64,000 bases of DNA from a phage. The translations under genes were made by a program, and so were the position numbers. Each line of letters begins with the position of its first letter. Position 1 is the first letter of the stretch. Shown here piece by piece: positions 27,535-40,677 of the stretch. The stretch lies in the NCBI GenBank assembly GCA_029742005.1, contig GCA_029742005.1_4113.1. One strand, 5' to 3'. The notes under the pieces are model-generated. The model was not told where the DNA came from. It was given only the letters and a program-made list of their open reading frames with translations, and made no database searches.

Positions 27535-27540
27535 GTTCTA

Positions 27541-27726: not shown

Positions 27727-27746
27727 CCACCAGCACAAGCTGGTGG
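27727..27746 (+). repeat. inverted Chi octamers forming hairpin CCACCAGC-ACAA-GCTGGTGG
   Basis: Perfect 8-bp inverted repeat whose arms are the E. coli Chi octamer and its complement. Confidence 0.6.
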
Positions 27747-27889
27747 ATTCCCTCTAACAGTATTCAGTACTACATGATAGTCTTCATCCTCCTAGGGTAA
27801 CATAGTGAGGGCTATGATGGCAGTACTGAATACTCCCTTTCAAAAGATAGATCTATGGTATAGTACTGACGGATTTTGGGCGTAGTTAC

Positions 27890-28060
27890 CCTGGATGGAT
27901 TTTGGACGTAGATATGTCTAGCCCTCCAGAAGTCTGGAAGTAAAGATGGCTATCCATCTAGACGGCTAAACGGCTAGATTTCTGGATGGCTGGATGGCTA
28001 GACGTTTGGACGGCTAAACGGCTAGATGGTTACACGTCTGGAAGTATAGACGGCTAAATC
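27890..28060. repeat. iteron-like direct repeat cluster
   Basis: GACGGCTAAACGGCTAGAT at 27961 and 28009, partial at 28049; TCTGGAAGTA twice; palindrome AGATGGCTATCCATCT. Confidence 0.6.
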
Positions 28061-28816
28061 AAAATTTTATTTTGTTTTTTCCAATAGTTCCCCTACCGCG
28101 TGGGGATAGTTTCCCCGCAGTATCTGGAGTTAGATTTTTCTGAATCTGGAATCATTATCTTATAAACTGGGGGCAATGTCAACCGCCTGGACGGATATTT
28201 TTAAAAATTTTTTCAGTACTGAATTTTGGGCGTAACTATGCACCCGGTGGGCTATAGTCTTTCTCGACTTGATGGAACTATTATACAGTACTGAAAAAAT
28301 AAAGCAATACCCTGGAAGCAAAAAAGTTTTAATTAATTTGCTTGCCATCCTGGGCCGTACTATGGTACTATATTTCAGTACTGAGAAAGTGCGTTTACCT
28401 GCTAGGGTGCGGGAGTGTATCCTTTTTTTATATCTTGAATTTTGGGCGTAATTCCGCACCCTCTGGGGTTTCCGCTTTCTCGCGTCTATGTAGTAATTAT
28501 ACGCTTTTTCAGGATCAAGTCAATACCTAAAAACAAAATAATTGAAAATAATTTAACGCGTTTAAACGGCCCGTAACGCCCTGGAATGATTGGAATGGTG
28601 CAAATGTATAGCTTAGGTGTATTAATGCGTTAGAATGCGTCTGAGGCCGTTTTACGGGGTATGGGGATGATTTAGTGGATTGATTCAGTACTGAATGATA
28701 GTACTACTATATAGAAAGATAGTTCCCCTGGATGGTTGCAGTACTGAATGATAGTACTGAATAATAGTTCCCCTATATAGAAAGAAAACTATTTTAAAAG
28801 TATTTGTAGAAAGTAC

Positions 28817-28844
28817 TTGCAAACTATGTTTAACGGCGTATAAT
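28817..28844 (+). promoter_or_regulatory. promoter TTGCAA-16-TATAAT followed by 5' stem-loop at 28856-28877
   Basis: First PeSL-like unit of the 28.8-45.3 kb region. Confidence 0.6.
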
Positions 28845-28899
28845 GTTTTACATCGAGAGCGGGAACACTTCCCGCTACACTTTAAGAGAGATTAATACG

Positions 28900-29262
28900 A
28901 TGGCGACTCAAATCACTAAAATCATGCTTAACCTGGTAAACTTCCGCGATGAGATGAAAGGTCTTCCGGCTGAAACTGTAAAAATTCACATTGCAGCTTA
29001 TCGGGAACTTATTGCAATGTTGCCGCTTAAGCGTGAACAATACGCCGCTACTTTGATGCTTGATTCAATGATCCATATAATGATCTCAAATGATTTAACG
29101 ATGGTTTATCAGTATATGGGTGAATTGTTCGCGGTGTATAGTAAACCAGTACCAGGAATGGAAAGTACAGAAGTATTACACGGTTTAAATTTAAAACAAG
29201 ATGCATGGGATAATATGCCTCGTTTCCTGGTATGGGCTGACAGTGGCAAGATTTACGAATAA
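28900..29262 (+). CDS. hypothetical protein
   Basis: ATG after RBS and hairpin; track start 28843 lies in the promoter. Confidence 0.55.
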   Translation: MATQITKIMLNLVNFRDEMKGLPAETVKIHIAAYRELIAMLPLKREQYAATLMLDSMIHIMISNDLTMVYQYMGELFAVYSKPVPGMESTEVLHGLNLKQDAWDNMPRFLVWADSGKIYE

Positions 29263-29276
29263 GTTTTAGAAAGTAC

Positions 29277-29304
29277 TTGCAAACTAAGTTTAAAAGCGTA
29301 TAAT
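29277..29304 (+). promoter_or_regulatory. promoter TTGCAA-16-TATAAT followed by stem-loop GTGGGGAATAGTTCCCCAC
   Basis: Same architecture as 28817. Confidence 0.6.
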
Positions 29305-29355
29305 GTTTTACATCAGGTGGGGAATAGTTCCCCACTATATAAGAGGATTAAAAAA

Positions 29356-29595
29356 ATGGCTAAATCAAAAATGTTCTTGGGTCACAAAAACAAAACTCAT
29401 TGGAATGTAAGCCTTTGGATTAATAACGATGAGTCATTGTACCGGTTGGCCCAGGACTTTATTGCCGCCAATACTAATCGCAATGATGCGGCCCGTCATA
29501 TGATGTTATTTTTAGAACAGACTGGACAATATAAAACACCGGACGGATTCAAATATAGCACTACTGCGATCCGTGCGGCGATGGTTGGAATGTAA
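29356..29595 (+). CDS. hypothetical protein
   Basis: RBS AAGAGGA; MAKSKMF.. Confidence 0.55.
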   Translation: MAKSKMFLGHKNKTHWNVSLWINNDESLYRLAQDFIAANTNRNDAARHMMLFLEQTGQYKTPDGFKYSTTAIRAAMVGM

Positions 29596-29609
29596 TAGAA
29601 TTTATTTAA

Positions 29610-29643
29610 AGTACTATCGCAAAAAATGATAGTACTTTATAAT
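29610..29643 (+). promoter_or_regulatory. promoter with operator-like inverted repeat AGTACTATC-N9-GATAGTACT before TATAAT
   Basis: Perfect 9-bp arms; -10 at 29638-29643; weak -35. Confidence 0.45.
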
Positions 29644-29680
29644 AGTGTTTTATTCATACACCAACGATAAGGGCAACAGC

Positions 29681-29947
29681 ATGAATATTAAGTATTTTGC
29701 GACGCGTGAACAAGCTCGGATCGCCGCACGCCAGGACGGGGCAACGTTTAAAGATATGGGCGTACAATCGGAACGTGGTAAACGTTGGGCCATTATAAAG
29801 CGTAGTACCGCCAGATCATTACAGTACTGGCTATCTGCTTTAAAGCGTCCTGATAGTGTATCGCGTCGCGTGGTAGAAATAAAGCACGACCGCAAGGGCA
29901 ACCGCGTTACTGTGTACAGTACTAAAAAGATAGCAGTACTTGAATAA
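29681..29947 (+). CDS. hypothetical protein, KYFATREQAR family
   Basis: Paralog of 40678-41073 (shared ..FATREQARI.AR..G.TFKDMG.. and ..HDRKGNRVTVYS..). Confidence 0.55.
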   Translation: MNIKYFATREQARIAARQDGATFKDMGVQSERGKRWAIIKRSTARSLQYWLSALKRPDSVSRRVVEIKHDRKGNRVTVYSTKKIAVLE

Positions 29948-30131
29948 AAGTACTTGCATACTATGTTTAAAGGCGTATAATGTTTTACATCAGGACGGGG
30001 AACGAAATAAGTAACTTCCCGTTAAGTAGCCCAGGAGTAAGGCACACGAAAAACTCCCCTGATAAAATAGTTTGACAAATGTTTTTAAAAGCGTATAATA
30101 CTTACATCAACTACTGAATGAGGGTTACAAA
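29946..30131 (+). repeat. dual-promoter repeat unit, copy 1
   Basis: Near-identical to 39417-39601; promoters at 29954-29981 and 30072-30099. Confidence 0.6.
29988..30070 (+). ncRNA. candidate small RNA between tandem promoters
   Basis: Hairpin ACGGGGAA..CTTCCCCGT; no ATG-initiated ORF; conserved in second copy. Confidence 0.3.
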
Positions 30132-30743
30132 ATGAAAACTATCACTACTACTACTTTCGTTATGGCTTTTTCTGAATTGAACGCAGAACAACAAACGTCA
30201 GCTATCGAACTGGTTCGGGATCGGGAACGTTCAAGCGGTGATGATTTCTTTTCTGAGTCAGTGATCGAGTACTATAAAGAAACAGTACTACCAGAATATG
30301 GAATTGATGACGCTGATTTGCAATTCAGTGGTTTTTGGTCGCAGGGTGACGGTGCATCAATCAGTACTGACCACGTTGACGCAGTGAAGTTTTTACGCAA
30401 GATTAAAGCATTAACTAAGTATCGTTCTATCCGTCACCTGCTGAATGAAGATGATTTGGCGATGAGTGTAAAGCGTTCTCACTCCCACTACTCGCATGAA
30501 AACACTGTAAGCGGGTACATTGAATCGGGGTACACTGATTTAACCGCAAAACAAGAAACGTTAGTTAATGAGCTTGAGGAACTACTCACTGAAACTATTC
30601 GTGAATTATCCCGCAAGTTGTACCGTGATTTAGAGAATGCATATGAGGATCAATTCACTACTGAAAACATTACGGCACTGATTGAGGGTAACGAATATCA
30701 ATTCAATGTTATTGATGGCGTAGTAGAATCTATCGAATATTAA
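30132..30743 (+). CDS. hypothetical protein
   Basis: 203 aa after promoter 30072-30099. Confidence 0.6.
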   Translation: MKTITTTTFVMAFSELNAEQQTSAIELVRDRERSSGDDFFSESVIEYYKETVLPEYGIDDADLQFSGFWSQGDGASISTDHVDAVKFLRKIKALTKYRSIRHLLNEDDLAMSVKRSHSHYSHENTVSGYIESGYTDLTAKQETLVNELEELLTETIRELSRKLYRDLENAYEDQFTTENITALIEGNEYQFNVIDGVVESIEY

Positions 30744-30799
30744 TTCAGTACTGAATCAATGGCGGGAGTGGTTCCCGCCTATAACCAGGAGTAAGCATC

Positions 30800-31033
30800 A
30801 TGTTCGAACAAATTCAAACGACCACAAGCCGGAGCGGAACGAAAGTACATTACATCGCTGATACTGATAAAGGTGTACCCTATTGTGCTGTACACGTAAA
30901 TACTGACGGTGACTATTGGTTAACTGTATACGGGCGTTACTCGTTTGCTTTTAGTGCACATTGTAAGATCCTGGAAGTAGTGAAGCCTACCGGTAAGAAT
31001 ATCACGCCGGGAAAATGTTTTACTAAGCACTAA
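30800..31033 (+). CDS. hypothetical protein, family with 31955-32191
   Basis: RBS AGGAG; shares GVPYCAVHVNT..YW.TVYG.YSF and ..PTGKNIT. Confidence 0.55.
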   Translation: MFEQIQTTTSRSGTKVHYIADTDKGVPYCAVHVNTDGDYWLTVYGRYSFAFSAHCKILEVVKPTGKNITPGKCFTKH

Positions 31034-31119
31034 AAAGTACTTGCATACTAAGTTTAAAAGCGTATAATACTTTATATCGAGGCGGGGGAATGGTTCCCGC
31101 CTTTACTGAGGATTATCTA

Positions 31120-31407
31120 ATGAGCAAAGTAATTAACTATACAGTACTAAGCAAGTCATTATCTATTAGCCAGTGCACCGATGGTTTTTGGCTGTACGAT
31201 GAAACGCGTGGCATGAATTTAGCTATGCGGGAGAAAACTGCTGAGGCGGCGTATTTACAAGCCCTGGAATACTACCAGGAACGTTTAAAGGAAGTAGAAA
31301 ACAATTATCAAAATTTAAAAGAGAAAGTAGATAATTTCGTTGGTCAATTCGTTGACGATGACGAGGAAGACGGGCACTACTGCAACCGTTGCGGATCTTA
31401 CAATTAA
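31120..31407 (+). CDS. hypothetical protein with C-terminal CxxC
   Basis: Promoter + hairpin GGCGGGGGAATGGTTCCCGCC upstream; RBS GAGGA. Confidence 0.55.
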   Translation: MSKVINYTVLSKSLSISQCTDGFWLYDETRGMNLAMREKTAEAAYLQALEYYQERLKEVENNYQNLKEKVDNFVGQFVDDDEEDGHYCNRCGSYN

Positions 31408-31489
31408 GTACTTGCAATTAGTTTTCAGTACTGTATAATGGTTTACATCAAAGGGAGAAATGGTTCTCCCTGGTAATGAGGAAAATAAA

Positions 31490-31711
31490 ATGGCTAATAT
31501 CACTACTCTTTCCCAACTGGAAGCACTGGTTAAATCTATGCGGGAACATGCCGACAAAATCGGCGTACAAGATCCAGCCGTTTGCTTTTGCGACGAATTG
31601 AATGATGATACCCTGGTAATAGCAGAAGTCCAGGACGTTTCTAACTATTCCTCGCGTTACACTGGCGGCGTAGCAAATAAAGGTGACTTCTGTTTATACC
31701 TTACAAAATAA
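31490..31711 (+). CDS. hypothetical protein
   Basis: Promoter + hairpin GGGAGAAATGGTTCTCCC upstream; RBS GAGGAA. Confidence 0.55.
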   Translation: MANITTLSQLEALVKSMREHADKIGVQDPAVCFCDELNDDTLVIAEVQDVSNYSSRYTGGVANKGDFCLYLTK

Positions 31712-31714
31712 CAA

Positions 31715-31747
31715 CGCGGGGAGATAATAACTCCCCGTTACTTTTTC
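31715..31747 (+). terminator. rho-independent terminator
   Basis: CGCGGGGAG..CTCCCCGT hairpin + TTACTTTTTC. Confidence 0.6.
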
Positions 31748-31954
31748 AGTACTGAATCATTTAATAGACGGATCTATGCACCCGGTGGGTTAGTGACTGT
31801 TTCGTCTTGATGTAGTAATTATGCCAGTACTGGATGCACTTGTCAACAATTATTTTTCAAATACTTTTTATTAAAATACTTGCAATTAGTTTTTAAACGC
31901 GTATAATGTTTTGCATAGGGGGAGCGGTTCCCCTGGTAACTAAGGAATAATAAA

Positions 31955-32191
31955 ATGCTTGAACAAATCAAATCAACGTCTTCGAATGTAACGGGAACGG
32001 TAGCACACTTTACTAGTGATGAATCGCGGGGCGTTCCCTATTGTGCTGTACATGTAAACACTGAGGGTAACTACTGGTTTACGGTTTACGGTTCATATTC
32101 ATTTGGACGGCCAGGGCATCAAAAAATTCTGGATAAAGTACAGCCAACGGGTAAAAATATCACTGCTGAAATGTTTTATAAAAAATCATAA
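31955..32191 (+). CDS. hypothetical protein, paralog of 30800-31033
   Basis: Promoter + hairpin upstream; RBS TAAGGAA. Confidence 0.55.
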   Translation: MLEQIKSTSSNVTGTVAHFTSDESRGVPYCAVHVNTEGNYWFTVYGSYSFGRPGHQKILDKVQPTGKNITAEMFYKKS

Positions 32192-32275
32192 AGTACTTGC
32201 AATTAGTTTTTAGTACTGTATAATATTTTACATCGCAAGGGGGAGCGGTTCCCCCTGGTAACTAAGGATAATCAA

Positions 32276-32575
32276 ATGAAAATTGCAATCATCGCCCTGG
32301 CTTTATCTGTTTCCTCTTTCGCTGTTAATGCGTCATTAGATGTAAGTAGTGAAAAATTCATTCAGTGCACTGTTGCAATGACCGATGAAAGTACTGGCGA
32401 GATTGTTTTAAAGGATTTAGAGATCCAGCCGGAAGCATTTAAAAACGGGCCGTTCCATGAAGAAGACGAAAAAGGTAGCACGACAATTTATTACGATGCA
32501 AGTACTAAACGCGGTTCGGTCACTGTTATGGATACTGAGAAAGTAACTCATACTGGCGTTATTAATTGCCGTTGA
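32276..32575 (+). CDS. secreted protein with signal peptide
   Basis: MKIAIIALALSVSSFAVNA; promoter + hairpin upstream. Confidence 0.6.
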   Translation: MKIAIIALALSVSSFAVNASLDVSSEKFIQCTVAMTDESTGEIVLKDLEIQPEAFKNGPFHEEDEKGSTTIYYDASTKRGSVTVMDTEKVTHTGVINCR

Positions 32576-32596
32576 TAGATACTACGGGGTAACATC

Positions 32597-32827
32597 ATGA
32601 CTAAGCGAATTGTTTTACTTAACGAAAGCAGTACTACACAACTACTTAACGCCGTGCATTATGATATTGAAACGAGCGTTAATCTTATCAGTACTGTCGT
32701 ACTGTTGGACACTGGAAAGGTCGCCAATGATAAAGCGATTGCAGGTATACTAACGGATCTTGAGCCTGGTAGCAGTGCACCAATAACGTTAAATGGTAAA
32801 GTGTTTAACATTTTACTTACTGATTAA
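32597..32827 (+). CDS. hypothetical protein
   Basis: 76-aa ORF, terminator immediately downstream. Confidence 0.5.
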   Translation: MTKRIVLLNESSTTQLLNAVHYDIETSVNLISTVVLLDTGKVANDKAIAGILTDLEPGSSAPITLNGKVFNILLTD

Positions 32828-32833
32828 GTACAT

Positions 32834-32856
32834 AGCCCACCCGGTGGGCTTTTTTG
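32834..32856 (+). terminator. rho-independent terminator AGCCCACC-CGGTGGGCT + T-run
   Basis: Perfect stem + TTTTTTG. Confidence 0.7.
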
Positions 32857-33059
32857 TTTTTGTAGTATCGTAGTACTGAGATACTTTGAAAATAGTTTTA
32901 AAAAATAGTTGACATTACCGCAGAAAAGCGTAGAATGTATTACATCAAGACGGGGAGCACTAAGTAGACCGCCAGTAAGTCGAACGAAAAACTGGACACG
33001 TCGAGAAAACTTTGATACACTAATAAACGTAAACTAAACTTTAATTGAGGATTTATAAA

Positions 33060-33542
33060 ATGGCTAATGTAAAATCATTCATCAAAGCACTGGTAGCAAA
33101 TGAAACTAACGTCGCGGCAGAGATCCTGGCTGATCTGGATAACGATACCATGAAAGCGGTACGCAATAATTTTAACATCGCTTATAGTACTGCGAAAGAA
33201 CTACAAGCAAATAAAGCGGCAGAAATTGAAGCGGCAAAGGCGGCCCGTGAAGCAGAACTACAAGCAACAATTGAAAGTATCCAGGCGGCAGTAGTTGGAT
33301 TGGATCTGGAAGTAGTTACAGAGATGGCACAAAAAGCCCTGGCGGTTAAGTATGGGGAAGATAAGCCGGAATCTAAGCCTAAAAAATGGATTCAAAAACG
33401 TGTAGCGGTAGTACTGGACAACGGGGAAGAATATCTGATTCCGGTGCGTGGTAACTGCATTGCGGTAGTACTGGATGCGATTAACTCCAGTGGTATGACT
33501 CGCGAGGAATGGATCGAAGCTCATCGCAAAGTGGAAGCATAA
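33060..33542 (+). CDS. hypothetical Ala-rich protein
   Basis: RBS GAGGA; long 5' UTR after promoter TTGACA..TAGAAT near 32909. Confidence 0.55.
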   Translation: MANVKSFIKALVANETNVAAEILADLDNDTMKAVRNNFNIAYSTAKELQANKAAEIEAAKAAREAELQATIESIQAAVVGLDLEVVTEMAQKALAVKYGEDKPESKPKKWIQKRVAVVLDNGEEYLIPVRGNCIAVVLDAINSSGMTREEWIEAHRKVEA

Positions 33543-33563
33543 CAATTAAAGTACTGAATCACT

Positions 33564-33590
33564 AGCCCACCTTAAACGGTGGGCTTTTTT
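33564..33590 (+). terminator. rho-independent terminator AGCCCACC-TTAAAC-GGTGGGCT + T-run
   Basis: Stem + TTTTTTG. Confidence 0.7.
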
Positions 33591-33609
33591 GTGTTTATCG
33601 TTTACCAGG

Positions 33610-33679
33610 CCACCAGCACCGCCTAGAAACGATTCTAACGCATTAAACTGATTATCTGATGCATTGCCCTAGCTGGTGG
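33610..33679 (+). repeat. inverted Chi octamers separated by about 55 nt
   Basis: CCACCAGC at 33610-33617 and GCTGGTGG at 33672-33679. Confidence 0.5.
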
Positions 33680-33827
33680 CGTTAAGGCTGTAAGAACGCG
33701 ATTGAGAGCGTTTAAAGTATTTTGCAAAAAGTAATAAAAAGTACTTGCACGATTAAGAGATTAGCGTATAATGTTTTACATCGAGAGGGGGAAACGGTTC
33801 TCCTTCCAAATCAAAGGAATTAAAACA

Positions 33828-34055
33828 ATGGCTATCGTAATCACTCGCGTAACTGGTACTACTGGCAATTCTTCTACTGTTGCTGTAATTACTAATAAGA
33901 AAGGTGCGGAATTGCATTTTGCAATGGATAAATGGGCCGTTAATGAGTTCGGTCAGTGGGCAAGTGTAGCATACATTGAAACCTATCAAGTGCCGTCAAT
34001 TAGTTTAACTGATTTGGGCGTTGAGCGTATCCTTTGCCTGGATGAATTAAATTAA
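33828..34055 (+). CDS. hypothetical protein
   Basis: Promoter + hairpin upstream; RBS AAAGGAA. Confidence 0.55.
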   Translation: MAIVITRVTGTTGNSSTVAVITNKKGAELHFAMDKWAVNEFGQWASVAYIETYQVPSISLTDLGVERILCLDELN

Positions 34056-34141
34056 AAAAGTACTTGCAAAGTAAATCAGATAAAGTATAATACATTACAT
34101 CAAGGGGAGAAATGGTTCTCCCTGATAATGAGGAAACTAAT

Positions 34142-34285
34142 ATGAAAACTTGTCAATGTGGTAAAAAATCTATTACTGGTTTAAAGCGGGGCGTTGCACT
34201 TTGCCAGTACCATTATAATTTACAAGTATGGGGTAAAGAATGGGCCGACCAGGTGGAAGCAGCAAAGAAAGCAAAAAGTAAGTAA
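34142..34285 (+). CDS. small Cys-containing protein (47 aa)
   Basis: Promoter + hairpin upstream; RBS GAGGAA; CQCG..CQYH. Confidence 0.45.
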   Translation: MKTCQCGKKSITGLKRGVALCQYHYNLQVWGKEWADQVEAAKKAKSK

Positions 34286-34297
34286 AAATATTATCAC

Positions 34298-34333
34298 AGT
34301 ACTATTGACATAGTTTGATAGTACTGGCATAAT
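34298..34333 (+). promoter_or_regulatory. promoter TTGACA-17-CATAAT bracketed by inverted repeat CAGTACTAT/ATAGTACTG
   Basis: IR arms flank -35 and fill the spacer; same unit at 37151, 40593, 43371. Confidence 0.55.
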
Positions 34334-34366
34334 AGATTTTATCAAGACAACTAAGAGGAAATTAAA

Positions 34367-34711
34367 ATGGCTAATATCAACACTATCGCAAAACAAAATA
34401 TCAACCTGTCTTCTGTTGAAGTTGTACATATTGCCGCTCGGCGTTGGTTCCAGGCTTCATATGGTAACACTTATTTCTCTTTAAGTGTAGACGTAGAAAT
34501 TGATGGTAATTTTATTGAAGTAGTAAACGTGCCGTTCCAATATGGATACGGGGATCACTTTGACACTGTAGCAATGGAAGAATTTAGCAAGGTTATTAAT
34601 ATGGAAGATAAGGAGTTTACACGCGGAACGTACCTTTCACGTTTTTGCCGTGATAATAATATCACTGTTTATAGTTCTGTTAGTGATGTTAAACGCAAAA
34701 AAGATCTTTAA
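34367..34711 (+). CDS. hypothetical protein, paralog of 40255-40578
   Basis: Shared ..GNTY.S..V..YGYG.. and C-terminal VKRKKD. Confidence 0.55.
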   Translation: MANINTIAKQNINLSSVEVVHIAARRWFQASYGNTYFSLSVDVEIDGNFIEVVNVPFQYGYGDHFDTVAMEEFSKVINMEDKEFTRGTYLSRFCRDNNITVYSSVSDVKRKKDL

Positions 34712-34791
34712 TTAGCTTTACTTTATGCAGATACTTTGATATAGTGTCTGCATAGGGGAAAGAAATTAAATTAACTTAAGAGGATAGTATA

Positions 34792-35061
34792 ATGAAAAAT
34801 ATCAGTACTTTAATCGATGCAGGTACACATGTTCGGCGGTCAATGGTTGCAACCAGTACTACAAAACAAGTAGCGAGCGGTTATCTTGTATTTGTGCACG
34901 ATGGTAAACTCCTGGAACGTTCAATCAATTTTGATGTTAAAAACAATTGCCGTTTTATTATCTTTCGCCGTGAACAATATAAGATCGACATTCCAGCGAA
35001 GCCCATTAGCGGGGCGTATAACGTCTATTCATTGTTTGAGCGTCAACCATACACCTATTAA
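34792..35061 (+). CDS. hypothetical protein
   Basis: RBS AAGAGGA. Confidence 0.5.
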   Translation: MKNISTLIDAGTHVRRSMVATSTTKQVASGYLVFVHDGKLLERSINFDVKNNCRFIIFRREQYKIDIPAKPISGAYNVYSLFERQPYTY

Positions 35062-35112
35062 TCAAAACATCGTTAGCGGTTGATTTAGGCCGCTTATATT
35101 GAGGATTATACC

Positions 35113-35385
35113 ATGAACGTTAATCAAGTACTGAATGAGATCGAAAGCATCATTAAACCGATGAAGCGTACTGATGCTATGTTAACACCGGAAGAATGCC
35201 GCCTATATGAGCGTTATAGCGTCGAACAAGTCCAGGCAATGGCTATGGCTACCCCAGCCGTTAAACCGCCTGAGAATGCGTTACAGGACGTTACAGGGGA
35301 TTATATCATCAATCCAGTACTAGGGAAGATGGCTGCAATCACCGAAGATCAACAAGACTACTTAAGCCAGTACTTAAAAGGTTAA
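35113..35385 (+). CDS. hypothetical protein
   Basis: RBS GAGGA. Confidence 0.5.
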   Translation: MNVNQVLNEIESIIKPMKRTDAMLTPEECRLYERYSVEQVQAMAMATPAVKPPENALQDVTGDYIINPVLGKMAAITEDQQDYLSQYLKG

Positions 35386-35390
35386 TTAAT

Positions 35391-35600
35391 ATGCTTACTG
35401 TACAGGATAAGATCGACATCTTAAAGGTTAATATGTATGTGATTGATGCCGTACCTGGTAAAGTATTTGCATACGATGATAGTACTGTAAGCGATTTCTA
35501 CTATAGCCAGGACGTGGGGGATCTTTCTGTACAGTCGGTTATTGAAAACGTAGTTAATGCAGCGTATGAGCATTTACTTTCAAATAGTACTTGCAATTAG
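35391..35600 (+). CDS. hypothetical protein
   Basis: 69-aa ORF; weak RBS. Confidence 0.4.
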   Translation: MLTVQDKIDILKVNMYVIDAVPGKVFAYDDSTVSDFYYSQDVGDLSVQSVIENVVNAAYEHLLSNSTCN

Positions 35601-35669
35601 TTTTTAAACGCGTATAATGTTTTACATGAAGGGGAGAAATGATTCTCCCCACTAATTAAGGAATATGAA

Positions 35670-35816
35670 ATGAAAGCATCAAAAAAGAGTAATACCAAGA
35701 AAGCATGTTCACCTTTCGCTGGGGTATTCCCTTTACGTTTCGTTGATGAAGTAGTTTCCTACCCGCCGGGCCTTACTCCTGAGATGGTAGAAAGTTTGCG
35801 TAAATCTAAAAAATAG
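35670..35816 (+). CDS. small hypothetical protein (48 aa)
   Basis: Promoter + hairpin GGGGAGAAATGATTCTCCCC upstream; RBS TAAGGAA. Confidence 0.45.
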   Translation: MKASKKSNTKKACSPFAGVFPLRFVDEVVSYPPGLTPEMVESLRKSKK

Positions 35817-35897
35817 TACTTGCAATTAGTTTTTAGTACTGTATAATAGTTTACATGAAGGGGAGAAATGGTTCTCCCCAATAACAGGAGAATCAAA

Positions 35898-36050
35898 ATG
35901 AAACAATACAACGCTCGGTTTGATGTTACTATCGGTAACGGCAAAGGTCAATTCTCTTTCAGTACTCGCAAAAGTTATACAGAAAACTTCCTGCGTAATT
36001 GTGCACTGACCGCCGCACAAATTAAACATTATTTTCAGGCTAAAAAATGA
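35898..36050 (+). CDS. small hypothetical protein (50 aa)
   Basis: Promoter + hairpin upstream; RBS AGGAGAA. Confidence 0.5.
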   Translation: MKQYNARFDVTIGNGKGQFSFSTRKSYTENFLRNCALTAAQIKHYFQAKK

Positions 36051-36136
36051 AAACATTAGCTTACTATAGTTCGGCCCTGGTCGGTGCATTGATCGCGGCG
36101 TTGTTAGTAACCTATCTATTCTTTATGGTGATTTAA
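36047..36136 (+). CDS. tiny hydrophobic peptide (29 aa)
   Basis: ATGA overlap with upstream gene; one predicted TM helix. Confidence 0.3.
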   Translation: MKTLAYYSSALVGALIAALLVTYLFFMVI

Positions 36137-36280
36137 ATGAATCCAACAGGTTTAAACTATAAAAGTTGTTCGGCGTTTACGAAAGCAAATAAAGCGAATG
36201 CACGTAAAGCGAAAGTACAGGAATACATCAAGCAAGGCATGACGCGAAAGGCGGCGATTCTAAAAGCTAAAAATAAATGA
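36137..36280 (+). CDS. small basic protein (47 aa)
   Basis: Starts right after previous stop; Lys/Ala-rich; terminator follows. Confidence 0.35.
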   Translation: MNPTGLNYKSCSAFTKANKANARKAKVQEYIKQGMTRKAAILKAKNK

Positions 36281-36285
36281 AAAAA

Positions 36286-36319
36286 GTGGTTGACTCCGGT
36301 CAGCCATTTTGCTATTATA
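36286..36319 (+). terminator. terminator-promoter composite (hairpin with TTGACT, then TATTAT)
   Basis: TGGTTGACTCCGGTCAGCCA hairpin; -35 36290-36295; -10 36314-36319. Confidence 0.55.
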
Positions 36320-36490
36320 TATTCATTGAGAGATAGCTCACTAGCCCACAGGGTGCATAAGTGTATCTATTATATAAGTATTGAGTACTGAAAACTATTT
36401 TTAAAAAGTACTTGCAAACTATCTCAATTGGCGTATAATGTTTTACATCGCAAGGGGAAACGGTTTCCCCTGGTAATAAGGAAACGAATC

Positions 36491-36832
36491 ATGACTATCT
36501 CAATTGCTCAATCTAACTTTGAAAACGAAATCATCGCCCAGGCACTGCGTTTAAATGATGGTCGGGCCGAAATTAATTACGGTTTCAATTCAGGCGGTTG
36601 CGAAAAATATCAGTACTTTGTAACGGCTGATGGCGGTGTCCTGGGGATCAATACAGTTATTGTAAACATTCAGAAAATTAATTTCAATGATCCAGAAGAT
36701 AGCCAGTTTTACATCACGGGTGTGAACGTGAACTATGAGGATGATTATCTAACTGATGATCACACTGGCGAGAAGTTAGAAAGTGCATACGGTGAAGATG
36801 ATTATCAGTCCGGTCCAGAAGATTTTGAATAA
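36491..36832 (+). CDS. hypothetical acidic protein
   Basis: Promoter + hairpin upstream; RBS AAGGAAA. Confidence 0.55.
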   Translation: MTISIAQSNFENEIIAQALRLNDGRAEINYGFNSGGCEKYQYFVTADGGVLGINTVIVNIQKINFNDPEDSQFYITGVNVNYEDDYLTDDHTGEKLESAYGEDDYQSGPEDFE

Positions 36833-36927
36833 TATTAAAAAATAGTTTGACAATAGATTATAGTACTGTATAATAAGTTACATCAAGGGGAGAAATGATT
36901 CTCCCCCACTAACAAAGAGAAAACAAA

Positions 36928-37140
36928 ATGGCTAATATCTGCACTGTACTGAAAAATGCAAAACAAGTTTTATTTTCTGATCATGAAAATTTCAACAAGG
37001 ATATTACGGGCGTTCGGAATATCAAAGATGTAAAAAGTGTTATGGGTATCTATTGCAATATGAAACGTGTTGGTACGTTCGGCGACAAAGTACTATACCA
37101 GGCAGGGGATTATAACTTTACATTAACCATTATCAATTAA
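36928..37140 (+). CDS. hypothetical protein
   Basis: Promoter + hairpin upstream. Confidence 0.5.
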   Translation: MANICTVLKNAKQVLFSDHENFNKDITGVRNIKDVKSVMGIYCNMKRVGTFGDKVLYQAGDYNFTLTIIN

Positions 37141-37150
37141 AATATATTAC

Positions 37151-37187
37151 CAGTACTATTGACAATGATTGATAGTACTGGCATAAT
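37151..37187 (+). promoter_or_regulatory. promoter TTGACA-17-CATAAT bracketed by IR CAGTACTAT/ATAGTACTG
   Basis: -35 37159-37164; -10 37182-37187. Confidence 0.55.
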
Positions 37188-37231
37188 AACTTTTATCAAC
37201 AGTAGTTAACTTAACAAAAGAGAGAAACAAA

Positions 37232-37375
37232 ATGATCGCACTAGATTCATTCATCGACGCAGTACTGGCAAAAACTGGCGAGGATCTGACCGCAGAACAA
37301 TACGCGATGATCGAACAATGTCAGCAAAACGGTAAATCGGTGAAAGATACTGTTAAGATTATCCGCAAGATGTAA
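37232..37375 (+). CDS. small hypothetical protein (47 aa)
   Basis: RBS AGAGAGAAA; hairpin with Chi octamer downstream. Confidence 0.45.
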   Translation: MIALDSFIDAVLAKTGEDLTAEQYAMIEQCQQNGKSVKDTVKIIRKM

Positions 37376-37474
37376 GATTATAGCCCACTGGTTAACGCTG
37401 GTGGGCTATAATTCATTACCCTATACAATGCCAGTACTAAACCGTTTATCTCGTTAGAATGCGTTACAGGACGT

Positions 37475-37678
37475 TTGACAATGATTAGCATGAAATCAGT
37501 ACAAAAACAAATAGAAACATTATCAAAAATTAAACGTAAACAATACTCCTTAGAATATAATATCAATGGTAACTATCATCTAATGAAAGAAAATAATTTT
37601 ATAGTCATTGATGAATCATTGCAAATTATTAGTATAGTACTGAAAGCATTAATCAATGACAGAAAAAAGTTAAAATAA
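37475..37678 (+). CDS. hypothetical protein
   Basis: ORF only; start uncertain (alternative ATG at 37490). Confidence 0.4.
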   Translation: MTMISMKSVQKQIETLSKIKRKQYSLEYNINGNYHLMKENNFIVIDESLQIISIVLKALINDRKKLK

Positions 37679-37935
37679 TGGCTGTAGGATTCGCGAAAGA
37701 CGGGGCCGAGCAAGACGAGATTAACGCAGTGATTCAGGCCGCCGTAAACCACGCTAGAAAGCAAATTAACGCACAAATAGAATCACTGATACATTGCCGC
37801 GACTGCGGCGATATAATCCCTGAGAAACGACGCCAGGCCGTTAAGGGATGTAAGTACTGCATAACTTGCCAGGAGGATCATGATAGTACTTTTAAACGTC
37901 CCCCGCGTAATTGTTGGCATAGATCTATGAGATAA
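37678..37935 (+). CDS. TraR/DksA-type C4 zinc-finger protein
   Basis: CRDCGDIIPEKRRQAVKGCKYCITCQ = CxxC-N17-CxxC typical of the family. Confidence 0.55.
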   Translation: MAVGFAKDGAEQDEINAVIQAAVNHARKQINAQIESLIHCRDCGDIIPEKRRQAVKGCKYCITCQEDHDSTFKRPPRNCWHRSMR

Positions 37936-38016
37936 AAAGTATTGACAGTACTATCCAGTAGTGTTATAGTACTTACATCAAGGGGAAACATCTTCCCCTA
38001 CTAAGAGGAAATGAAA

Positions 38017-38205
38017 ATGGAAAACTTATCAAGTATTTTAGTACAAGATGATTTCGGTAATCCTGGAAGTGCTATCATTGTTCGGGGTAATAAAGCAACA
38101 TTTGTTATTGCTGGTGGACCTGTACAGCGTAGCATTAAAAACAATGCCGTTACTATTAATAATGTACGCTATCGCTTAGATAAAGAATTGATTCATAAAC
38201 TGTAA
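38017..38205 (+). CDS. hypothetical protein
   Basis: Promoter + hairpin upstream; RBS AAGAGGAAA. Confidence 0.5.
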   Translation: MENLSSILVQDDFGNPGSAIIVRGNKATFVIAGGPVQRSIKNNAVTINNVRYRLDKELIHKL

Positions 38206-38232
38206 TATTAATTTAATAGAGGATAACAATAA

Positions 38233-38556
38233 ATGTACATTCATACTACTATCACAAAGGAAGTCCGTTGCCAGTTCGAAAGTATTCCGGGCGTATGTTT
38301 CATCACTGGTACGTTTTCCCCTGGTGATCGTGATAATCCAGTACTGTTACAATTACGCCATCCATCATGGGATAAAGCATTTGATCTACCGTTGAATGAA
38401 TTCGCAACTACTGCTGAAAAGTACATTAAAAATATTCGCGAGAATGATCGACTATTCATTAATGCTTTTAGTGATTCCGCGTTAAGCGAGATCCACGGCG
38501 TATTGGTTGCAATCATGGAATCAATGGAGAAAACTAAATTCAAACAAGGTGAATAA
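38233..38556 (+). CDS. hypothetical protein
   Basis: RBS TAGAGGA. Confidence 0.55.
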   Translation: MYIHTTITKEVRCQFESIPGVCFITGTFSPGDRDNPVLLQLRHPSWDKAFDLPLNEFATTAEKYIKNIRENDRLFINAFSDSALSEIHGVLVAIMESMEKTKFKQGE

Positions 38557-38639
38557 AAACTATTGACAATGTAATCTAGTACTGTATAATAAGTTACATG
38601 AAGGGGAGAAATGATTCTCCCCACTGAGAGGAAAGAAAA

Positions 38640-38852
38640 ATGCAAGGTCAACTAATCGTTCGTAAATGGTCTGATACTAACGAAAAACCGTGGGATGTAC
38701 AATACATCGGACCGGACGGTGTTTCACGTTATCAACCTGGCGTAACGCATAGTACTGAGCAATATGCCGCCGCTCACCGCGAACGCCTGTTAGAATCCAT
38801 GAAACAGGGATTCTGTGAAAAATTCATTCAAGATCATTGGCTGAAAGATTAA
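38640..38852 (+). CDS. hypothetical protein
   Basis: Promoter TTGACA-16-TATAAT + hairpin upstream; RBS GAGAGGAAA. Confidence 0.55.
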   Translation: MQGQLIVRKWSDTNEKPWDVQYIGPDGVSRYQPGVTHSTEQYAAAHRERLLESMKQGFCEKFIQDHWLKD

Positions 38853-38869
38853 TATAAGGAGTACAGCTT

Positions 38870-38962
38870 ATGCAAATGAATCCGATGATTATTGTTTTAG
38901 CTGTACTTATGATCATTCATGCAATTGTAGAAGTATTAACGCAATCAGGAGTAATAAAATGA
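38870..38962 (+). CDS. tiny hydrophobic peptide (30 aa)
   Basis: RBS TAAGGAG; one TM-like segment. Confidence 0.35.
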   Translation: MQMNPMIIVLAVLMIIHAIVEVLTQSGVIK

Positions 38963-39132
38963 TTCAAGTAGAATTATCAGTACTGAAAGATCTGTTTTAT
39001 CGGATTGGTACTACTGGCGAATATCCGAAGGGTGATAATGCAAAACTTTACGTATCACTCGACTTATGGCAACGCGAACAATTAGCAACAGCGTGGCGTA
39101 AAGGTAAAGCAGATCGCGAGGTGAAAGCATGA
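38959..39132 (+). CDS. small hypothetical protein (57 aa)
   Basis: ATGA overlap with upstream ORF. Confidence 0.4.
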   Translation: MIQVELSVLKDLFYRIGTTGEYPKGDNAKLYVSLDLWQREQLATAWRKGKADREVKA

Positions 39133-39278
39133 AAGAATTCTTATTCGAAGTAGTGTTCCAGGGCGTAGGAAGTAACCAACTGATTCGATCAAGTGGTTAC
39201 AATGTTAACCAGGCATGGAATAACATTAAACAAATGTACCCGAACGCTATCACCTATCGCAACCCAAAACAAGTTTAA
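39129..39278 (+). CDS. small hypothetical protein (49 aa)
   Basis: ATGA overlap; terminator-promoter follows. Confidence 0.4.
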   Translation: MKEFLFEVVFQGVGSNQLIRSSGYNVNQAWNNIKQMYPNAITYRNPKQV

Positions 39279-39292
39279 AAAGAATTGAAAAA

Positions 39293-39325
39293 GGGATTGA
39301 CTCCGGTCAGTCCCTTTGCTATTAT
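39293..39325 (+). terminator. terminator-promoter composite
   Basis: GGGATTGACTCCGGTCAGTCCC hairpin; TTGACT-17-TATTAT. Confidence 0.6.
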
Positions 39326-39416
39326 ATATTCATTGAAACAATCTAGCCCACAGGGTGCATAAATGTATCTATTGTTTGCTGGTGGCTAGTACTATCAAGT
39401 ACTGAAAACTATTTTT

Positions 39417-39601
39417 AAAAAGTACTTGCAAAGTATCACGATAAGCGTATAATGTTTTACATCAGGACGGGGAACGAAACAAGTAACTCCCCGTTAAGTA
39501 GTCCAGGAGTAAGACATACGAAAACCTCCCCTGATAAAATAGTTTGACAATAGAAATTAAACGAGTATAATACTTACATCAACCACAAAGAGGAATACAA
39601 A
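39417..39601 (+). repeat. dual-promoter repeat unit, copy 2
   Basis: Near-identical to 29946-30131. Confidence 0.6.
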
Positions 39602-39802
39602 ATGAAACATTTTACTTTCGGTGTAGTAGGCTTTACAGTATCCAGCGGCGTTTATAAATCAGAACGCGGTGCTAAAAATGCAGCAAGTCGGGCGTATGGT
39701 TCACAGCGTGACTTACAGGTCGGTTATATTAGTAACATTAATAACATGTTTATTCCTGTTTCACAGCGTAAAGCGGGTAACATGAAATGGGAAACAATTT
39801 GA
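39602..39802 (+). CDS. hypothetical protein
   Basis: RBS AAGAGGAA. Confidence 0.5.
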   Translation: MKHFTFGVVGFTVSSGVYKSERGAKNAASRAYGSQRDLQVGYISNINNMFIPVSQRKAGNMKWETI

Positions 39803-39891
39803 TAAAATAGTTTGACAATAGTTTTTAGTACTGTATAATAGTTTACATCAAGTGGGGAATAGTTCCCCACCTAACAAAGAGAGAAATTAAA

Positions 39892-40167
39892 ATGCGGATT
39901 CTACTGACAGCTAACGAAATCGAGCAAGTACTGACTACTAACCTGGAAGACTGGAAACGTGATGCAGATATCCAGGCGGTTCAATGCCTTAACGATAAGT
40001 TAACGCCAGATGACTTAAGCACGATTGTTGATCCACAATTTTATGAAGATATTCACGACATGGATTTAAGCGTAGAGGATGTACTTGATAAGCACTACAT
40101 TGATACTGATTTACAGGTTTACGGTCGTAAAAACTTTATCACTATTCACGACATTTACAATACTTAA
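39892..40167 (+). CDS. hypothetical acidic protein
   Basis: Promoter + hairpin GTGGGGAATAGTTCCCCAC upstream. Confidence 0.55.
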   Translation: MRILLTANEIEQVLTTNLEDWKRDADIQAVQCLNDKLTPDDLSTIVDPQFYEDIHDMDLSVEDVLDKHYIDTDLQVYGRKNFITIHDIYNT

Positions 40168-40254
40168 GTATTGACAAAGTATCTTAGTACTGTATAATAG
40201 TTTACATCAAGTGAGGGGAATGGTTCCCCTCCTAACAAAAAGAGAGAAATTAAA

Positions 40255-40578
40255 ATGGCTATGATCCTTACCCAGAAAGTAGAAATGAAAATTGTAACTT
40301 CCTTTGACATTAAAGTTAATCGGTGGACTGATAGCCACGGCAATACTTACCACTCATGCTACGTGTCTGCATTGATTGGTGACCGCTGGGAAGACCTGGG
40401 ACATGAAACCTTTACTTACGGTTACGGTACACAAGGCGAATACACGGGCTTGGAGATCATTAAAGAAACTGTAATAGGTTTCAACCCGAAAGAGAAAGTA
40501 CTACACAGAATTGAGGATGAGATCAACAAAGAAATTACAGTTCGTTACTACGATGTAAAACGTAAGAAAGACATGTAA
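40255..40578 (+). CDS. hypothetical protein, paralog of 34367-34711
   Basis: Promoter + hairpin upstream; C-terminus VKRKKDM. Confidence 0.55.
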   Translation: MAMILTQKVEMKIVTSFDIKVNRWTDSHGNTYHSCYVSALIGDRWEDLGHETFTYGYGTQGEYTGLEIIKETVIGFNPKEKVLHRIEDEINKEITVRYYDVKRKKDM

Positions 40579-40592
40579 TAGAATCCATTTAA

Positions 40593-40629
40593 AGTACTAT
40601 TTGACATTACCCAGATAGTACTTTATAAT
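40593..40629 (+). promoter_or_regulatory. promoter TTGACA-17-TATAAT bracketed by IR AGTACTAT/ATAGTACT
   Basis: -35 40601-40606; -10 40624-40629. Confidence 0.6.
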
Positions 40630-40677
40630 AGACTCTAACTTGTAGTACTAATTAACTTAACTAATAGGATGTACACC

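What the first reader, a model, noticed from the sequence alone, without database searches (positions are those of the whole stretch)
34298..34333. Operator-like inverted repeats bracketing the -35 of at least five promoters
At 29610, 34298, 37151, 40593 and 43371 the -35 is flanked by (C)AGTACTAT on the left and ATAGTACT(G) on the right, 7-9 bp apart. The right arm fills the spacer next to the -10. The four copies with a TTGACA -35 are almost identical over about 36 bp. A perfect inverted repeat overlapping core promoter elements is the standard architecture of a repressor-controlled promoter, so these five genes may form a regulon.
Basis: inference. Interest (0 to 1): 0.55.

Follow-up and report, generated by a model that had tools for sequence, protein, structure and literature searches.

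The report
Genome-wide AGTACT word paired at promoters
The inverted repeats around these phage promoters are real, but each arm is a copy of a six-base palindrome (AGTACT) that this jumbo phage and its relatives carry about every 240 bases throughout the window, so they probably mark a genome-wide recognition system rather than a private five-gene switch.

Summary
The repeats exist where reported, with corrections. The arms are 11-14 bp apart, not 7-9. Three copies are near-identical, not four. A sixth copy lies at 37947, and 29610 has no -35.

The window is an Asteriusvirus jumbo coliphage (about 96% identical to phAPEC6). The promoters lie in its inferred terminal repeat (about 27142-45475).

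Each arm contains AGTACT, itself a palindrome. It occurs 269 times in 64 kb against about 20 expected. No one-mismatch variant exceeds 2.6-fold enrichment. It diverges half as fast as its flanks. Inside genes it is built by synonymous codon choice. It is enriched in RaK2, GAP32 and CBB, but not in PA5oct or an E. coli K-12 sample.

In 24 of 34 predicted sigma-70 promoters of the repeat it sits in fixed registers next to the -10 and -35. There it is better conserved than those hexamers. RaK2 has the same architecture.

Best reading (confidence 0.4): AGTACT is the site of an unidentified symmetric, phage-specific DNA reader, and paired boxes put early promoters under its control.

The five-gene regulon is too narrow. 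The cassettes also mark indel junctions, as T4 PeSL elements do. No reader protein was found and no published description turned up.

The parts
34297..34326 (.). Class C paired boxes. Left arm CAGTACTAT at 34297-34305 and right arm ATAGTACTG at 34318-34326, bracketing the -35 TTGACA at 34305-34310.
   Evidence: As single-stranded DNA it folds into a 9-bp stem with a 12-nt loop, -6 kcal/mol, z -2.95.
34328..34333 (+). -10 hexamer CATAAT. The TG of the right arm falls at -15/-14, the extended -10 register.
   Evidence: (AGTACT starts 8 bp before the hexamer) and the sequence.
34367..34711 (+). Downstream gene, 114 aa, unknown function (phrog_6246).
37151..37180 (.). Class C paired boxes around the -35 at 37159-37164. 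The -10 CATAAT is at 37182-37187 and the gene at 37232-37375 (47 aa).
   Evidence: This cassette (37138-37200) is also an indel junction against phAPEC6.
43371..43400 (.). Class C paired boxes around the -35 at 43379-43384. The -10 TATGAT is at 43402-43407 and the gene at 43435-43692 (85 aa).
40593..40622 (.). Variant pair with arms 14 bp apart, within a 12-14 bp repeat. The -35 is at 40601-40606, the -10 TATAAT at 40624-40629 and the gene at 40669-41073 (phrog_8127).
29610..29636 (.). Variant pair with arms 11 bp apart, within a 12-bp perfect repeat TAAAGTACTATC/GATAGTACTTTA. There is no -35. TATAAT is at 29638-29643. The gene at 29645-29947 is a paralogue of the 40669 gene.
   Evidence: The 11-bp segment between the arms is exactly inverted in phAPEC6.
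37947..37973 (.). Sixth AGTACTAT-N11-ATAGTACT pair, placed just after a TTGAC. The gene is at 38011-38205.
31407..31439 (+). Example of the commoner two-box promoter, AGTACTTGCAA-N9-AGTACTGTATAAT, with boxes 20 bp apart. Others are at 32192-32224 and 35815-35847.
27142..45475 (+). Inferred direct terminal repeat holding the early promoters. It has 120 AGTACT in 18.3 kb (6.55 per kb).
   Evidence: Mapped by homology to the fEgEco12 genome ends. [quoted passage not shown] Counts are. The right boundary is approximate, from an 84.6% identical alignment.
1..64000 (.). All 269 AGTACT sites of the window. The weak extended consensus is TTnCAGTACTGnAA.
52300..60000 (+). Island with almost no AGTACT but 44 AGTACA, all on the sense strand.

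Best explanation
Each arm is one copy of a clade-specific recognition word, AGTACT (weak extended consensus TTnCAGTACTGnAA). I propose it is read on double-stranded DNA by a symmetric, phage-specific factor, most likely a dimeric DNA-binding protein encoded elsewhere in the 350-kb genome.

The word is spread over the whole phage genome. In the sampled sequences it is about 70 times denser than in host DNA. In the early promoters of the terminal repeat it has been placed in fixed registers: just upstream of the -10 (about -20 to -14), and abutting or overlapping the -35 (about -42 to -34).

Occupancy of both would cover the -35 flank and the spacer. That would put sigma-70 transcription of many early genes under one factor, most plausibly as an early shut-off.

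Shown: the enrichment, the constraint, the fixed registers and the conservation across genera.
For: Enrichment and sharpness:
- 269 sites against 20.5 (order-1 Markov) or 49 (order-2) expected. CAGTACTG occurs 61 times against 0.85 expected.
- AGTACT is 15.3-fold enriched outside the islands. Every one-mismatch variant is at most 2.6-fold enriched.
- Flank preferences are symmetric (C at -1, G at +6, T at -3/-4, A at +8/+9) in both coding and non-coding sites. This fits two-fold symmetric recognition of duplex DNA.

Selection:
- Against phAPEC6, per-base divergence is 2.9% in sites and about 6% in flanks. For non-coding sites it is 1.2% against about 6.7%.
- In 27 terminal-repeat promoters the boxes show 1 mismatch in 204 positions. 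The -35 shows 4 in 149, the -10 shows 4 in 159, and other positions 61 in 1249.
- Inside genes, Ser-Thr is encoded AGT-ACT 72 times against 21 expected. The other two reading frames give 33 against 7.5 and 62 against 13. The dipeptides Ser-Thr, Val-Leu and Gln-Tyr are themselves over-used.

Promoter placement:
- AGTACT starts at -7/-8 (14 promoters), -17/-18 (4), -27 (10) and -30/-31 (4) relative to the -10 hexamer start.
- Coding-region sites are not followed by -10-like hexamers on the + strand.

Distribution across phages and host:
- RaK2 has 119 sites in 50 kb, GAP32 64 in 30 kb and CBB 57 in 25 kb.
- PA5oct has 1 in 25 kb against 7.5 expected. An E. coli K-12 sample has 3 in 50 kb.
- RaK2 has two exact CAGTACTATTGACA-N7-ATAGTACTG promoters and at least ten AGTACTG-N(0-2)-(T/C)ATAAT-like promoters in 8.2 kb.
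- The arms are invariant while the spacer varies.
Against: - No reader was found. There is no DNA-binding Pfam domain in 150 window ORFs, in the genes downstream of these promoters, or around the phage sigma gene.
- Most sites are single and lie inside genes, so promoter control cannot be the word's only function or its original one.
- Part of the -10-proximal box, the TG, is explained by an extended -10. That register is the commoner one in RaK2.
- A hexamer this sharply defined is more typical of restriction-modification-type enzymes than of helix-turn-helix repressors (my own knowledge).
- The strand-specific AGTACA island does not fit a purely symmetric reader.
- The direction of the effect, repression or activation, is untested.
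Confidence: 0.4

Rival explanations
1. The boxes are intrinsic promoter elements read by RNA polymerase itself, either host sigma-70 or the phage's own sigma-70-family factor. The -10-proximal AGTACTG supplies an extended -10. The upstream aaaAGTAC acts like a proximal UP element.
For: - In the -8 register the TG falls at -15/-14 and goes with weak hexamers (CATAAT, TATGAT, GATAAT).
- Most RaK2 promoters use this register.
- The phage encodes a sigma factor with regions 2, 3 and 4.
- A-tracts precede many upstream boxes.
Against: - Ten window promoters use the -7 register, which puts the TG one base out of place next to a perfect TATAAT.
- The AGTAC part has no counterpart in the sigma-70 consensus (my own knowledge).
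- About 62% of sites lie inside genes with no -10-like hexamer downstream on the + strand, yet they are selected through codon choice.
- Many strong-looking promoters lack the box entirely (cgTATAAT type).
Confidence: 0.15
2. AGTACT (or GTAC) is the target of a phage DNA-modifying enzyme. Promoter activity or another process depends on the modification state of these sites.
For: - The hexamer is a strict palindrome with little tolerance for variants, like the target of a type II enzyme.
- phAPEC6 encodes a C5-cytosine methyltransferase, and papers report a further N6-adenine methyltransferase (PMC7247149).
- RaK2 DNA was reported to resist many restriction enzymes (PMC3622015).
Against: - Modification targets do not need to be enriched, and no known case predicts 12-15-fold enrichment (my own knowledge).
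- The symmetric flank preferences extend beyond a 6-bp site.
- The specificity of the methyltransferases is unknown.
- The variant expected from methyl-cytosine deamination, AATACT/AGTATT, is not depleted (1.35-fold). This argues against a repair-driven drift towards AGTACT.
Confidence: 0.15
3. The word serves DNA metabolism rather than transcription. It could be a primase start site, a nicking site, a topoisomerase II site or a recombination signal needed at regular intervals on both strands. Its presence in promoters would then be secondary.
For: - The word is genome-wide, including replication and head gene regions of phAPEC6 (78-146 sites per 50 kb).
- Spacing is slightly more regular than random: coefficient of variation 0.80-0.88 in six data sets against 0.99 for random placement.
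- CAGTAC/GTACTG is the top-scoring hexamer.
- The AGTACA island keeps GTACT on one strand only.
- Host Chi sites are also enriched, 14 against about 0.4 expected, which shows selection on DNA-metabolism words.
Against: - The palindromic form is far preferred over one-strand variants: 74-77% of GTACT sites are AGTACT.
- Non-coding sites are denser and much better conserved than coding ones.
- The fixed promoter registers are conserved in a different genus.
- No enzyme has been linked to the word. The primase reading is pure inference.
Confidence: 0.12
4. The near-identity of the promoters reflects copy-and-paste of mobile promoter cassettes, like T4 PeSL elements, and not shared regulation.
For:
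- phAPEC6 has an extra 59-aa gene flanked by two class C cassettes.
- 29610 and 40593 were duplicated together with their genes.
- PeSL behaviour is described in PMC2839356 and PMC4122927.
Against: - It explains why the copies are similar, but not why AGTACT positions are more conserved than the -35 and -10.
- It does not explain the shared architecture in RaK2 with unrelated spacers, or the enrichment inside genes.
- It is compatible with the main explanation and does not replace it.
Confidence: 0.1

Closest known systems
Repressor operators overlapping sigma-70 promoters (lambda OR/OL, LexA boxes, the multi-operator C1 regulon of phage P1; from my own knowledge)
   Same: A dyad-symmetric sequence overlaps the -35 flank and the spacer. 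The same site recurs at many promoters, and it is conserved more strongly than the neighbouring sequence.
   Different: - The site is only a 6-bp palindrome (8-14 bp with weak flanks).
- It occurs about once per 240 bp across the window, mostly inside genes.
- Box spacing is variable.
- No repressor has been identified.
Genome-coating phage DNA-binding proteins that also repress early promoters (phi29 p6, SPO1 TF1; from my own knowledge)
   Same: Sites lie all over the phage genome. There is a special arrangement at early promoters that could switch off early transcription.
   Different: As I recall, p6 recognises DNA shape rather than a word, and TF1 prefers hydroxymethyluracil DNA. Here the signal is a strict hexamer in ordinary DNA.
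PeSL promoter/stem-loop cassettes of T4-type phages (PMC2839356, PMC4122927)
   Same: Repeated sigma-70 early promoter cassettes sit between small early genes. They are found at indel junctions between close relatives. Many are associated with stem-loops.
   Different: Published PeSL descriptions mention no AGTACT-like boxes. Class C cassettes lack the stem-loop. The word extends far beyond the cassettes.
SlmA-binding site of E. coli, GTGAGTACTCAC (PMC3020112)
   Same: It shares the central AGTACT. It is a palindromic site scattered over a chromosome and read by a TetR-family dimer.
   Different: SlmA needs G, T and a purine at the three flanking positions. Here C is preferred and G depleted at -1. 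No full site is present, and only 8 of 538 half-site contexts fit.
Over-represented functional words (Chi, uptake sequences, FtsK-orienting sequences; from my own knowledge)
   Same: A short word is enriched more than ten-fold. It is maintained in coding sequence through codon choice and is specific to one lineage.
   Different: Those words are asymmetric and polar. AGTACT is palindromic, except in the AGTACA island. Its function is unknown.
Extended -10 (TGn) promoters (from my own knowledge)
   Same: In class C and most RaK2 promoters the TG of AGTACTG lies at -15/-14, next to an imperfect -10.
   Different: It explains two of the seven conserved bases, and only in one of the two registers.

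Membership tests
Repressor-controlled promoter (operator) | Dyad-symmetric site | tested here: met
   The repeats are 9-12 bp and perfect.
Repressor-controlled promoter (operator) | Site overlaps core promoter elements | tested here: met
   The left arm shares its last T with TTGACA. The right arm ends 1-2 bp before the -10.
Repressor-controlled promoter (operator) | Sites confined to the regulated promoters | tested here: not met
   There are 269 AGTACT sites, 167 of them inside heuristically called genes. The 8-mer arm AGTACTAT occurs 53 times.
Repressor-controlled promoter (operator) | Fixed spacing of half-sites | tested here: not met
   AGTACT-to-AGTACT distances are 19, 20, 21, 22 and 24 bp in the window, and 31 bp in the phAPEC6 orthologue.
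Repressor-controlled promoter (operator) | A cognate DNA-binding regulator | tested here: inconclusive
   Pfam finds no DNA-binding domain in 150 window ORFs or in 11 phAPEC6 ORFs flanking the sigma gene. The rest of the 350-kb genome was not scanned.
PeSL-type mobile promoter cassette | Repeated sigma-70 early promoter cassettes between small early genes | tested here: met
   34 predicted promoters lie in 18 kb and fall into a few near-identical classes.
PeSL-type mobile promoter cassette | Located at indel junctions between close relatives | tested here: met
   The junctions at 29946-30002, 37138-37200 and 42714-42784 are promoter cassettes.
PeSL-type mobile promoter cassette | Associated stem-loop | tested here: inconclusive
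Stem-loops are present in the TTGCAA and TTGACA classes and in the terminator-promoter elements.
Extended -10 promoter | TG at -15/-14 | tested here: inconclusive
   Met in the -8 register (4 window promoters, 7 in RaK2). Not met in the -7 register (10 window promoters).
SlmA-binding site | G-T-purine flank on each side of AGTACT | tested here: not met
   There are 0 full sites, and 8 of 538 half-site contexts fit. The requirement is taken from PMC3020112.
Restriction-modification or methyltransferase target | Short strict palindrome | tested here: met
   AGTACT is 15.3-fold enriched, against at most 2.6-fold for any one-mismatch variant.
Restriction-modification or methyltransferase target | An enzyme with that specificity, and modified sites in virion DNA | not testable with these tools
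   A C5-methyltransferase is present, but its specificity cannot be read from sequence here. No methylome data were available.

The most novel reading that the evidence does not exclude
AGTACT is a lineage-specific address label written across the genomes of RaK2-like jumbo phages of enterobacteria. It is about 70 times denser than in the sampled host DNA and is maintained even at the cost of protein sequence. An as yet unknown phage factor reads it to tell phage DNA from host DNA. Early promoters have co-opted pairs of the label as a global timing switch. The sense-strand-only AGTACA island would be a region deliberately made readable on one strand only.
Probability: 0.3. Interest if true: 0.8.

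Novelty: new variant of a known kind. Interest (0 to 1): 0.65.

Why it matters
- About 83% of the genes of these jumbo phages have no known function (PMC7247149), and I found no published transcriptome for the group.
- A single six-base word is selected hard enough to bias codon and dipeptide usage. It is shared across phage genera infecting E. coli, Klebsiella, Cronobacter and Pectobacterium, and it is built into the core of most early promoters.
- The word is a direct experimental handle. It can be used as bait to fish out its reader.
- The word also gives a simple sequence signature for recognising members of this group.
- For annotation, it shows that the reported operator is one instance of a much larger system.

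Tried and rejected
- **Chance:** rejected by shuffles and Markov expectations.
- **Protein-level cause** of the enrichment inside genes: rejected. Sites occur in all three reading frames and exceed synonymous expectation 3.4- to 4.7-fold.
- **Cryptic internal promoters:** rejected on the + strand. There is no -10-like hexamer after coding-region sites.
- **SlmA sites:** rejected on the flanks.
- **Repair-driven drift towards AGTACT:** not supported, because AATACT is not depleted.
- **Cruciform or hairpin function:** unlikely. Stems are 9-12 bp with 9-12-nt loops, only -6 to -8.5 kcal/mol even as single strands.
- **Helical phasing of sites genome-wide:** none beyond the 19-24 bp promoter pairs.
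- **Known RNA families and tRNAs in the window:** none.
- **Search for the reader protein:** Pfam on 150 window ORFs and on 11 ORFs flanking the phAPEC6 sigma gene, plus PHROGs on six downstream genes. No DNA-binding domain was found.
- **Literature:** searches combining AGTACT or CAGTACTG with phage terms, and reading of the RaK2, CBB, phAPEC6, Sharanji, fEgEco12 and EJP2 papers, found no mention of the word. The GAP32 paper was not searched for or read.
- **Technical failures:** loci fetched in parallel did not reach the script machine (L003, L004, L009, L011, L012), so a complete phAPEC6 profile was not made.

Full report
**Identity and setting**

The window is an Asteriusvirus-type jumbo coliphage. 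Region 33000-37000 is 95.9% identical to phAPEC6, and 86 phage records match it. An IMG/VR contig of 348,532 bp, the length of the 121Q record, carries the same three exact promoter copies.

I mapped the genome ends by homology to fEgEco12. [quoted passage not shown] The left physical end corresponds to window 27142. The end of the roughly 21-kb direct terminal repeat corresponds to about 45475. All promoters in the finding lie inside this repeat and read away from the left end. They are among dozens of small genes of unknown function.

**The observation**

The pairs AGTACTAT...ATAGTACT are present at 29610, 34298, 37152, 40593 and 43372. AGTACTATTGACA-N7-ATAGTACT occurs exactly three times, against 0.01 expected at up to three mismatches.

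- The arms are 11-14 bp apart, not 7-9.
- Only three copies are near-identical. 40593 has an extra base and a different spacer.
- 29610 has no -35.
- A sixth pair lies at 37947.
- 29610 and 40593 carry a longer 12-14 bp repeat and drive paralogous genes.

**What the arms are**

The core of each arm, AGTACT, is itself a palindrome, and it is the dominant over-represented word of the window.
- It occurs 269 times, against 20.5 expected from dinucleotide content and 49 from trinucleotide content.
- CAGTACTG occurs 61 times against 0.85 expected.
- Outside two islands the enrichment is 15.3-fold, and no one-mismatch variant exceeds 2.6-fold.
- Flank preferences are weak but symmetric (TTnCAGTACTGnAA), and they are the same in coding and non-coding sites.
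- Using my heuristic gene calls, density is 7.8 per kb in non-coding DNA and 3.3 per kb in coding DNA, against about 0.34 expected.
- It is 6.55 per kb in the terminal repeat and 3.3 per kb elsewhere.

**Evidence of selection**
- *Conservation.* The window aligns to phAPEC6 over 56.8 kb at 93.4% identity. Per-base divergence is 2.9% within AGTACT and about 6% in flanking hexamers. For non-coding sites it is 1.2% against about 6.7%.
- *Codon choice.* Inside genes the word is created by synonymous choice in all three frames. Ser-Thr is written AGT-ACT 72 times against 21 expected. The other two frames give 33 against 7.5 and 62 against 13.
- *Dipeptide usage.* Ser-Thr (146 against 79), Val-Leu (176 against 99) and Gln-Tyr (67 against 36) are over-used, while the reversed dipeptides are not.
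- *Spacing.* Sites are slightly more evenly spaced than random in six data sets, with a coefficient of variation of 0.80-0.88 against 0.99.

**Distribution across phages and host**

In phAPEC6 the word is enriched everywhere I sampled:

| phAPEC6 region | AGTACT sites |
|---|---|
| Early region, 30.8 kb | 176 |
| 1-50 kb | 146 |
| 50-100 kb | 103 |
| 100-150 kb (replication and head genes) | 78 |

About 17 would be expected per 50 kb.

In other genomes:

| Genome sampled | AGTACT sites | Length sampled |
|---|---|---|
| Klebsiella phage RaK2 | 119 | 50 kb |
| Cronobacter phage GAP32 | 64 | 30 kb |
| Pectobacterium phage CBB | 57 | 25 kb |
| Pseudomonas phage PA5oct | 1 (7.5 expected) | 25 kb |
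| E. coli K-12 | 3 | 50 kb |

In these samples the word is therefore about 70 times denser in phage DNA than in host DNA.

**Relation to promoters**

A simple -35/-10 scan finds 34 sigma-70-like promoters in the terminal repeat. Of these, 24 carry AGTACT and 11 carry it twice. The word starts at only a few distances from the -10 hexamer:
- -7 or -8 (14 promoters)
- -17 or -18 (4 promoters)
- -27 (10 promoters, as AGTACTTGCAA)

In the -8 register the TG falls at -15/-14, the extended -10 position, and accompanies weak hexamers (CATAAT, TATGAT, GATAAT). In the -7 register the TG is one base out of place beside a perfect TATAAT.

Across 27 of these promoters the boxes show 1 mismatch in 204 positions against phAPEC6. 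The -35 shows 4 in 149, the -10 shows 4 in 159, and other positions 61 in 1249.

It also has at least ten AGTACTG-N(0-2)-(T/C)ATAAT-like promoters in 8.2 kb. In a ten-sequence alignment the arms and key -10 positions are invariant while the spacer after TTGACA varies.

**Interpretation**

It is one arrangement of a general element, not a private operator. Three features argue that each AGTACT is a site in its own right, read on duplex DNA by a two-fold symmetric factor:
- Box spacing varies: 19-24 bp in the window, and 31 bp in phAPEC6, where the left arm has moved 9 bp upstream.
- The word is abundant inside genes.
- The flank preferences are symmetric.

Two boxes about two helical turns apart, covering the -35 flank and the spacer, would let such a factor control sigma-70 initiation at many early promoters at once. 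I consider early shut-off the most likely outcome, at a confidence of 0.4.

I could not find a candidate reader. Pfam recognises no DNA-binding domain among 150 window ORFs. The recognisable domains are RCC1 repeats, a DksA/TraR zinc finger, a ParE-like toxin, a pyrimidine-dimer glycosylase, a kinase and an AAA ATPase. Nothing was found in the genes downstream of these promoters or near the phage sigma gene.

**Rivals**
- *Recognition by RNA polymerase.* This explains the TG in one register, but not AGTAC, the -7 register, or the gene-internal sites. Those sites are not followed by -10-like hexamers on the + strand.
- *A modification target.* This fits the strict hexamer and the presence of a C5-methyltransferase. 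It does not predict enrichment or the flank preferences. The variant expected from deamination is not depleted.
- *A DNA-metabolism word* (primase, nicking, topoisomerase or recombination). This fits the genome-wide, fairly even distribution and the one-strand island. It does not fit the strong preference for the palindromic form, or the fixed promoter registers conserved in another genus.
- *Cassette copying.* This is real but not exclusive of the main explanation. phAPEC6 has an extra 59-aa gene between two class C cassettes, as described for T4-type PeSL elements (PMC2839356, PMC4122927).
- *SlmA sites.* They share the AGTACT core but require flanks that are absent here.

**Novelty and limits**

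Full-text searches and six papers on this phage group contain no mention of the word. Predicted promoters in CBB were described only as RpoD-like with an UP-like element. The held library does not cover subscription journals, so absence there is not proof of novelty.

Other limits:
- Gene calls are heuristic.
- Only part of phAPEC6 and single stretches of the other genomes were counted.
- The right boundary of the terminal repeat is approximate.

Noticed in passing
window 52300-60000: AGTACT is almost absent (1 site), but AGTACA occurs 44 times on the sense strand and never on the other strand. It occurs in all three reading frames and has the same flanks as AGTACT sites (TnCAGTACAGnA). The pattern is conserved in phAPEC6. 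The genes are a paralogue family of about 170-185 aa found only in Asteriusvirus phages.
   Followed up: partly
window 45300-50000: A second stretch almost free of AGTACT (1 site). It begins at the inferred right boundary of the terminal repeat. It is packed with small overlapping genes and diverges more from phAPEC6, at 84-90% identity.
   Followed up: partly
window 29618-29628 versus L001 8052-8062: The 11 bp between the arms at 29610 (CGCAAAAAATG) are exactly inverted in phAPEC6 (CATTTTTTGCG), while the arms and flanks are identical. This suggests an inversion or a template switch across the repeat.
   Followed up: no
window 3713, 27739, 33672, 37397, 38110, 39378, 41761, 43891, 44113 (+ strand); 12503, 12761, 13016, 27727, 33610 (- strand): The E. 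coli Chi sequence GCTGGTGG occurs 14 times, against about 0.4 expected. Most copies are on the + strand. Two form a hairpin at 27727/27739, near the genome end.
   Followed up: no
window 26869-28899: About 2 kb without a called gene. It contains the inferred left genome end (27142), many ttcAGTACTGaat sites and short direct repeats. There is no Rfam or tRNA match.
   Followed up: partly
window 1463, 6105, 6688, 36290, 39297, 42601, 44005: A repeated element, aaaaGGGaTTGACTccGGTCAgtCCCtttt. Its terminator-like hairpin contains the -35 (TTGACT) of a following TATTAT or TATAAT promoter, so it is a combined terminator and promoter.
   Followed up: no
window 37678-37935: An early gene with a DksA/TraR C4 zinc finger (E 7.9e-11). 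It is probably a factor that binds the secondary channel of RNA polymerase. The coordinates come from reading CxxC motifs in the sequence and from the SHEFM2K annotation. The Pfam summary does not say which ORF matched.
   Followed up: no
window 11204-22803 (- strand): Ten tandem paralogues of about 380 aa with RCC1-like repeats. AGTACT is still about ten-fold enriched there, mostly in one reading frame.
   Followed up: no
window, whole: GGTACC (KpnI site) is absent against about 6 expected, and CGTACG occurs once, although GTAC as a whole is three-fold enriched.
   Followed up: no
L001 16406-16450 (phAPEC6): In the phAPEC6 copy of the 37152 promoter, a 9-bp insertion moves the left arm one helical turn upstream. 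Both AGTACT boxes are retained.
   Followed up: no
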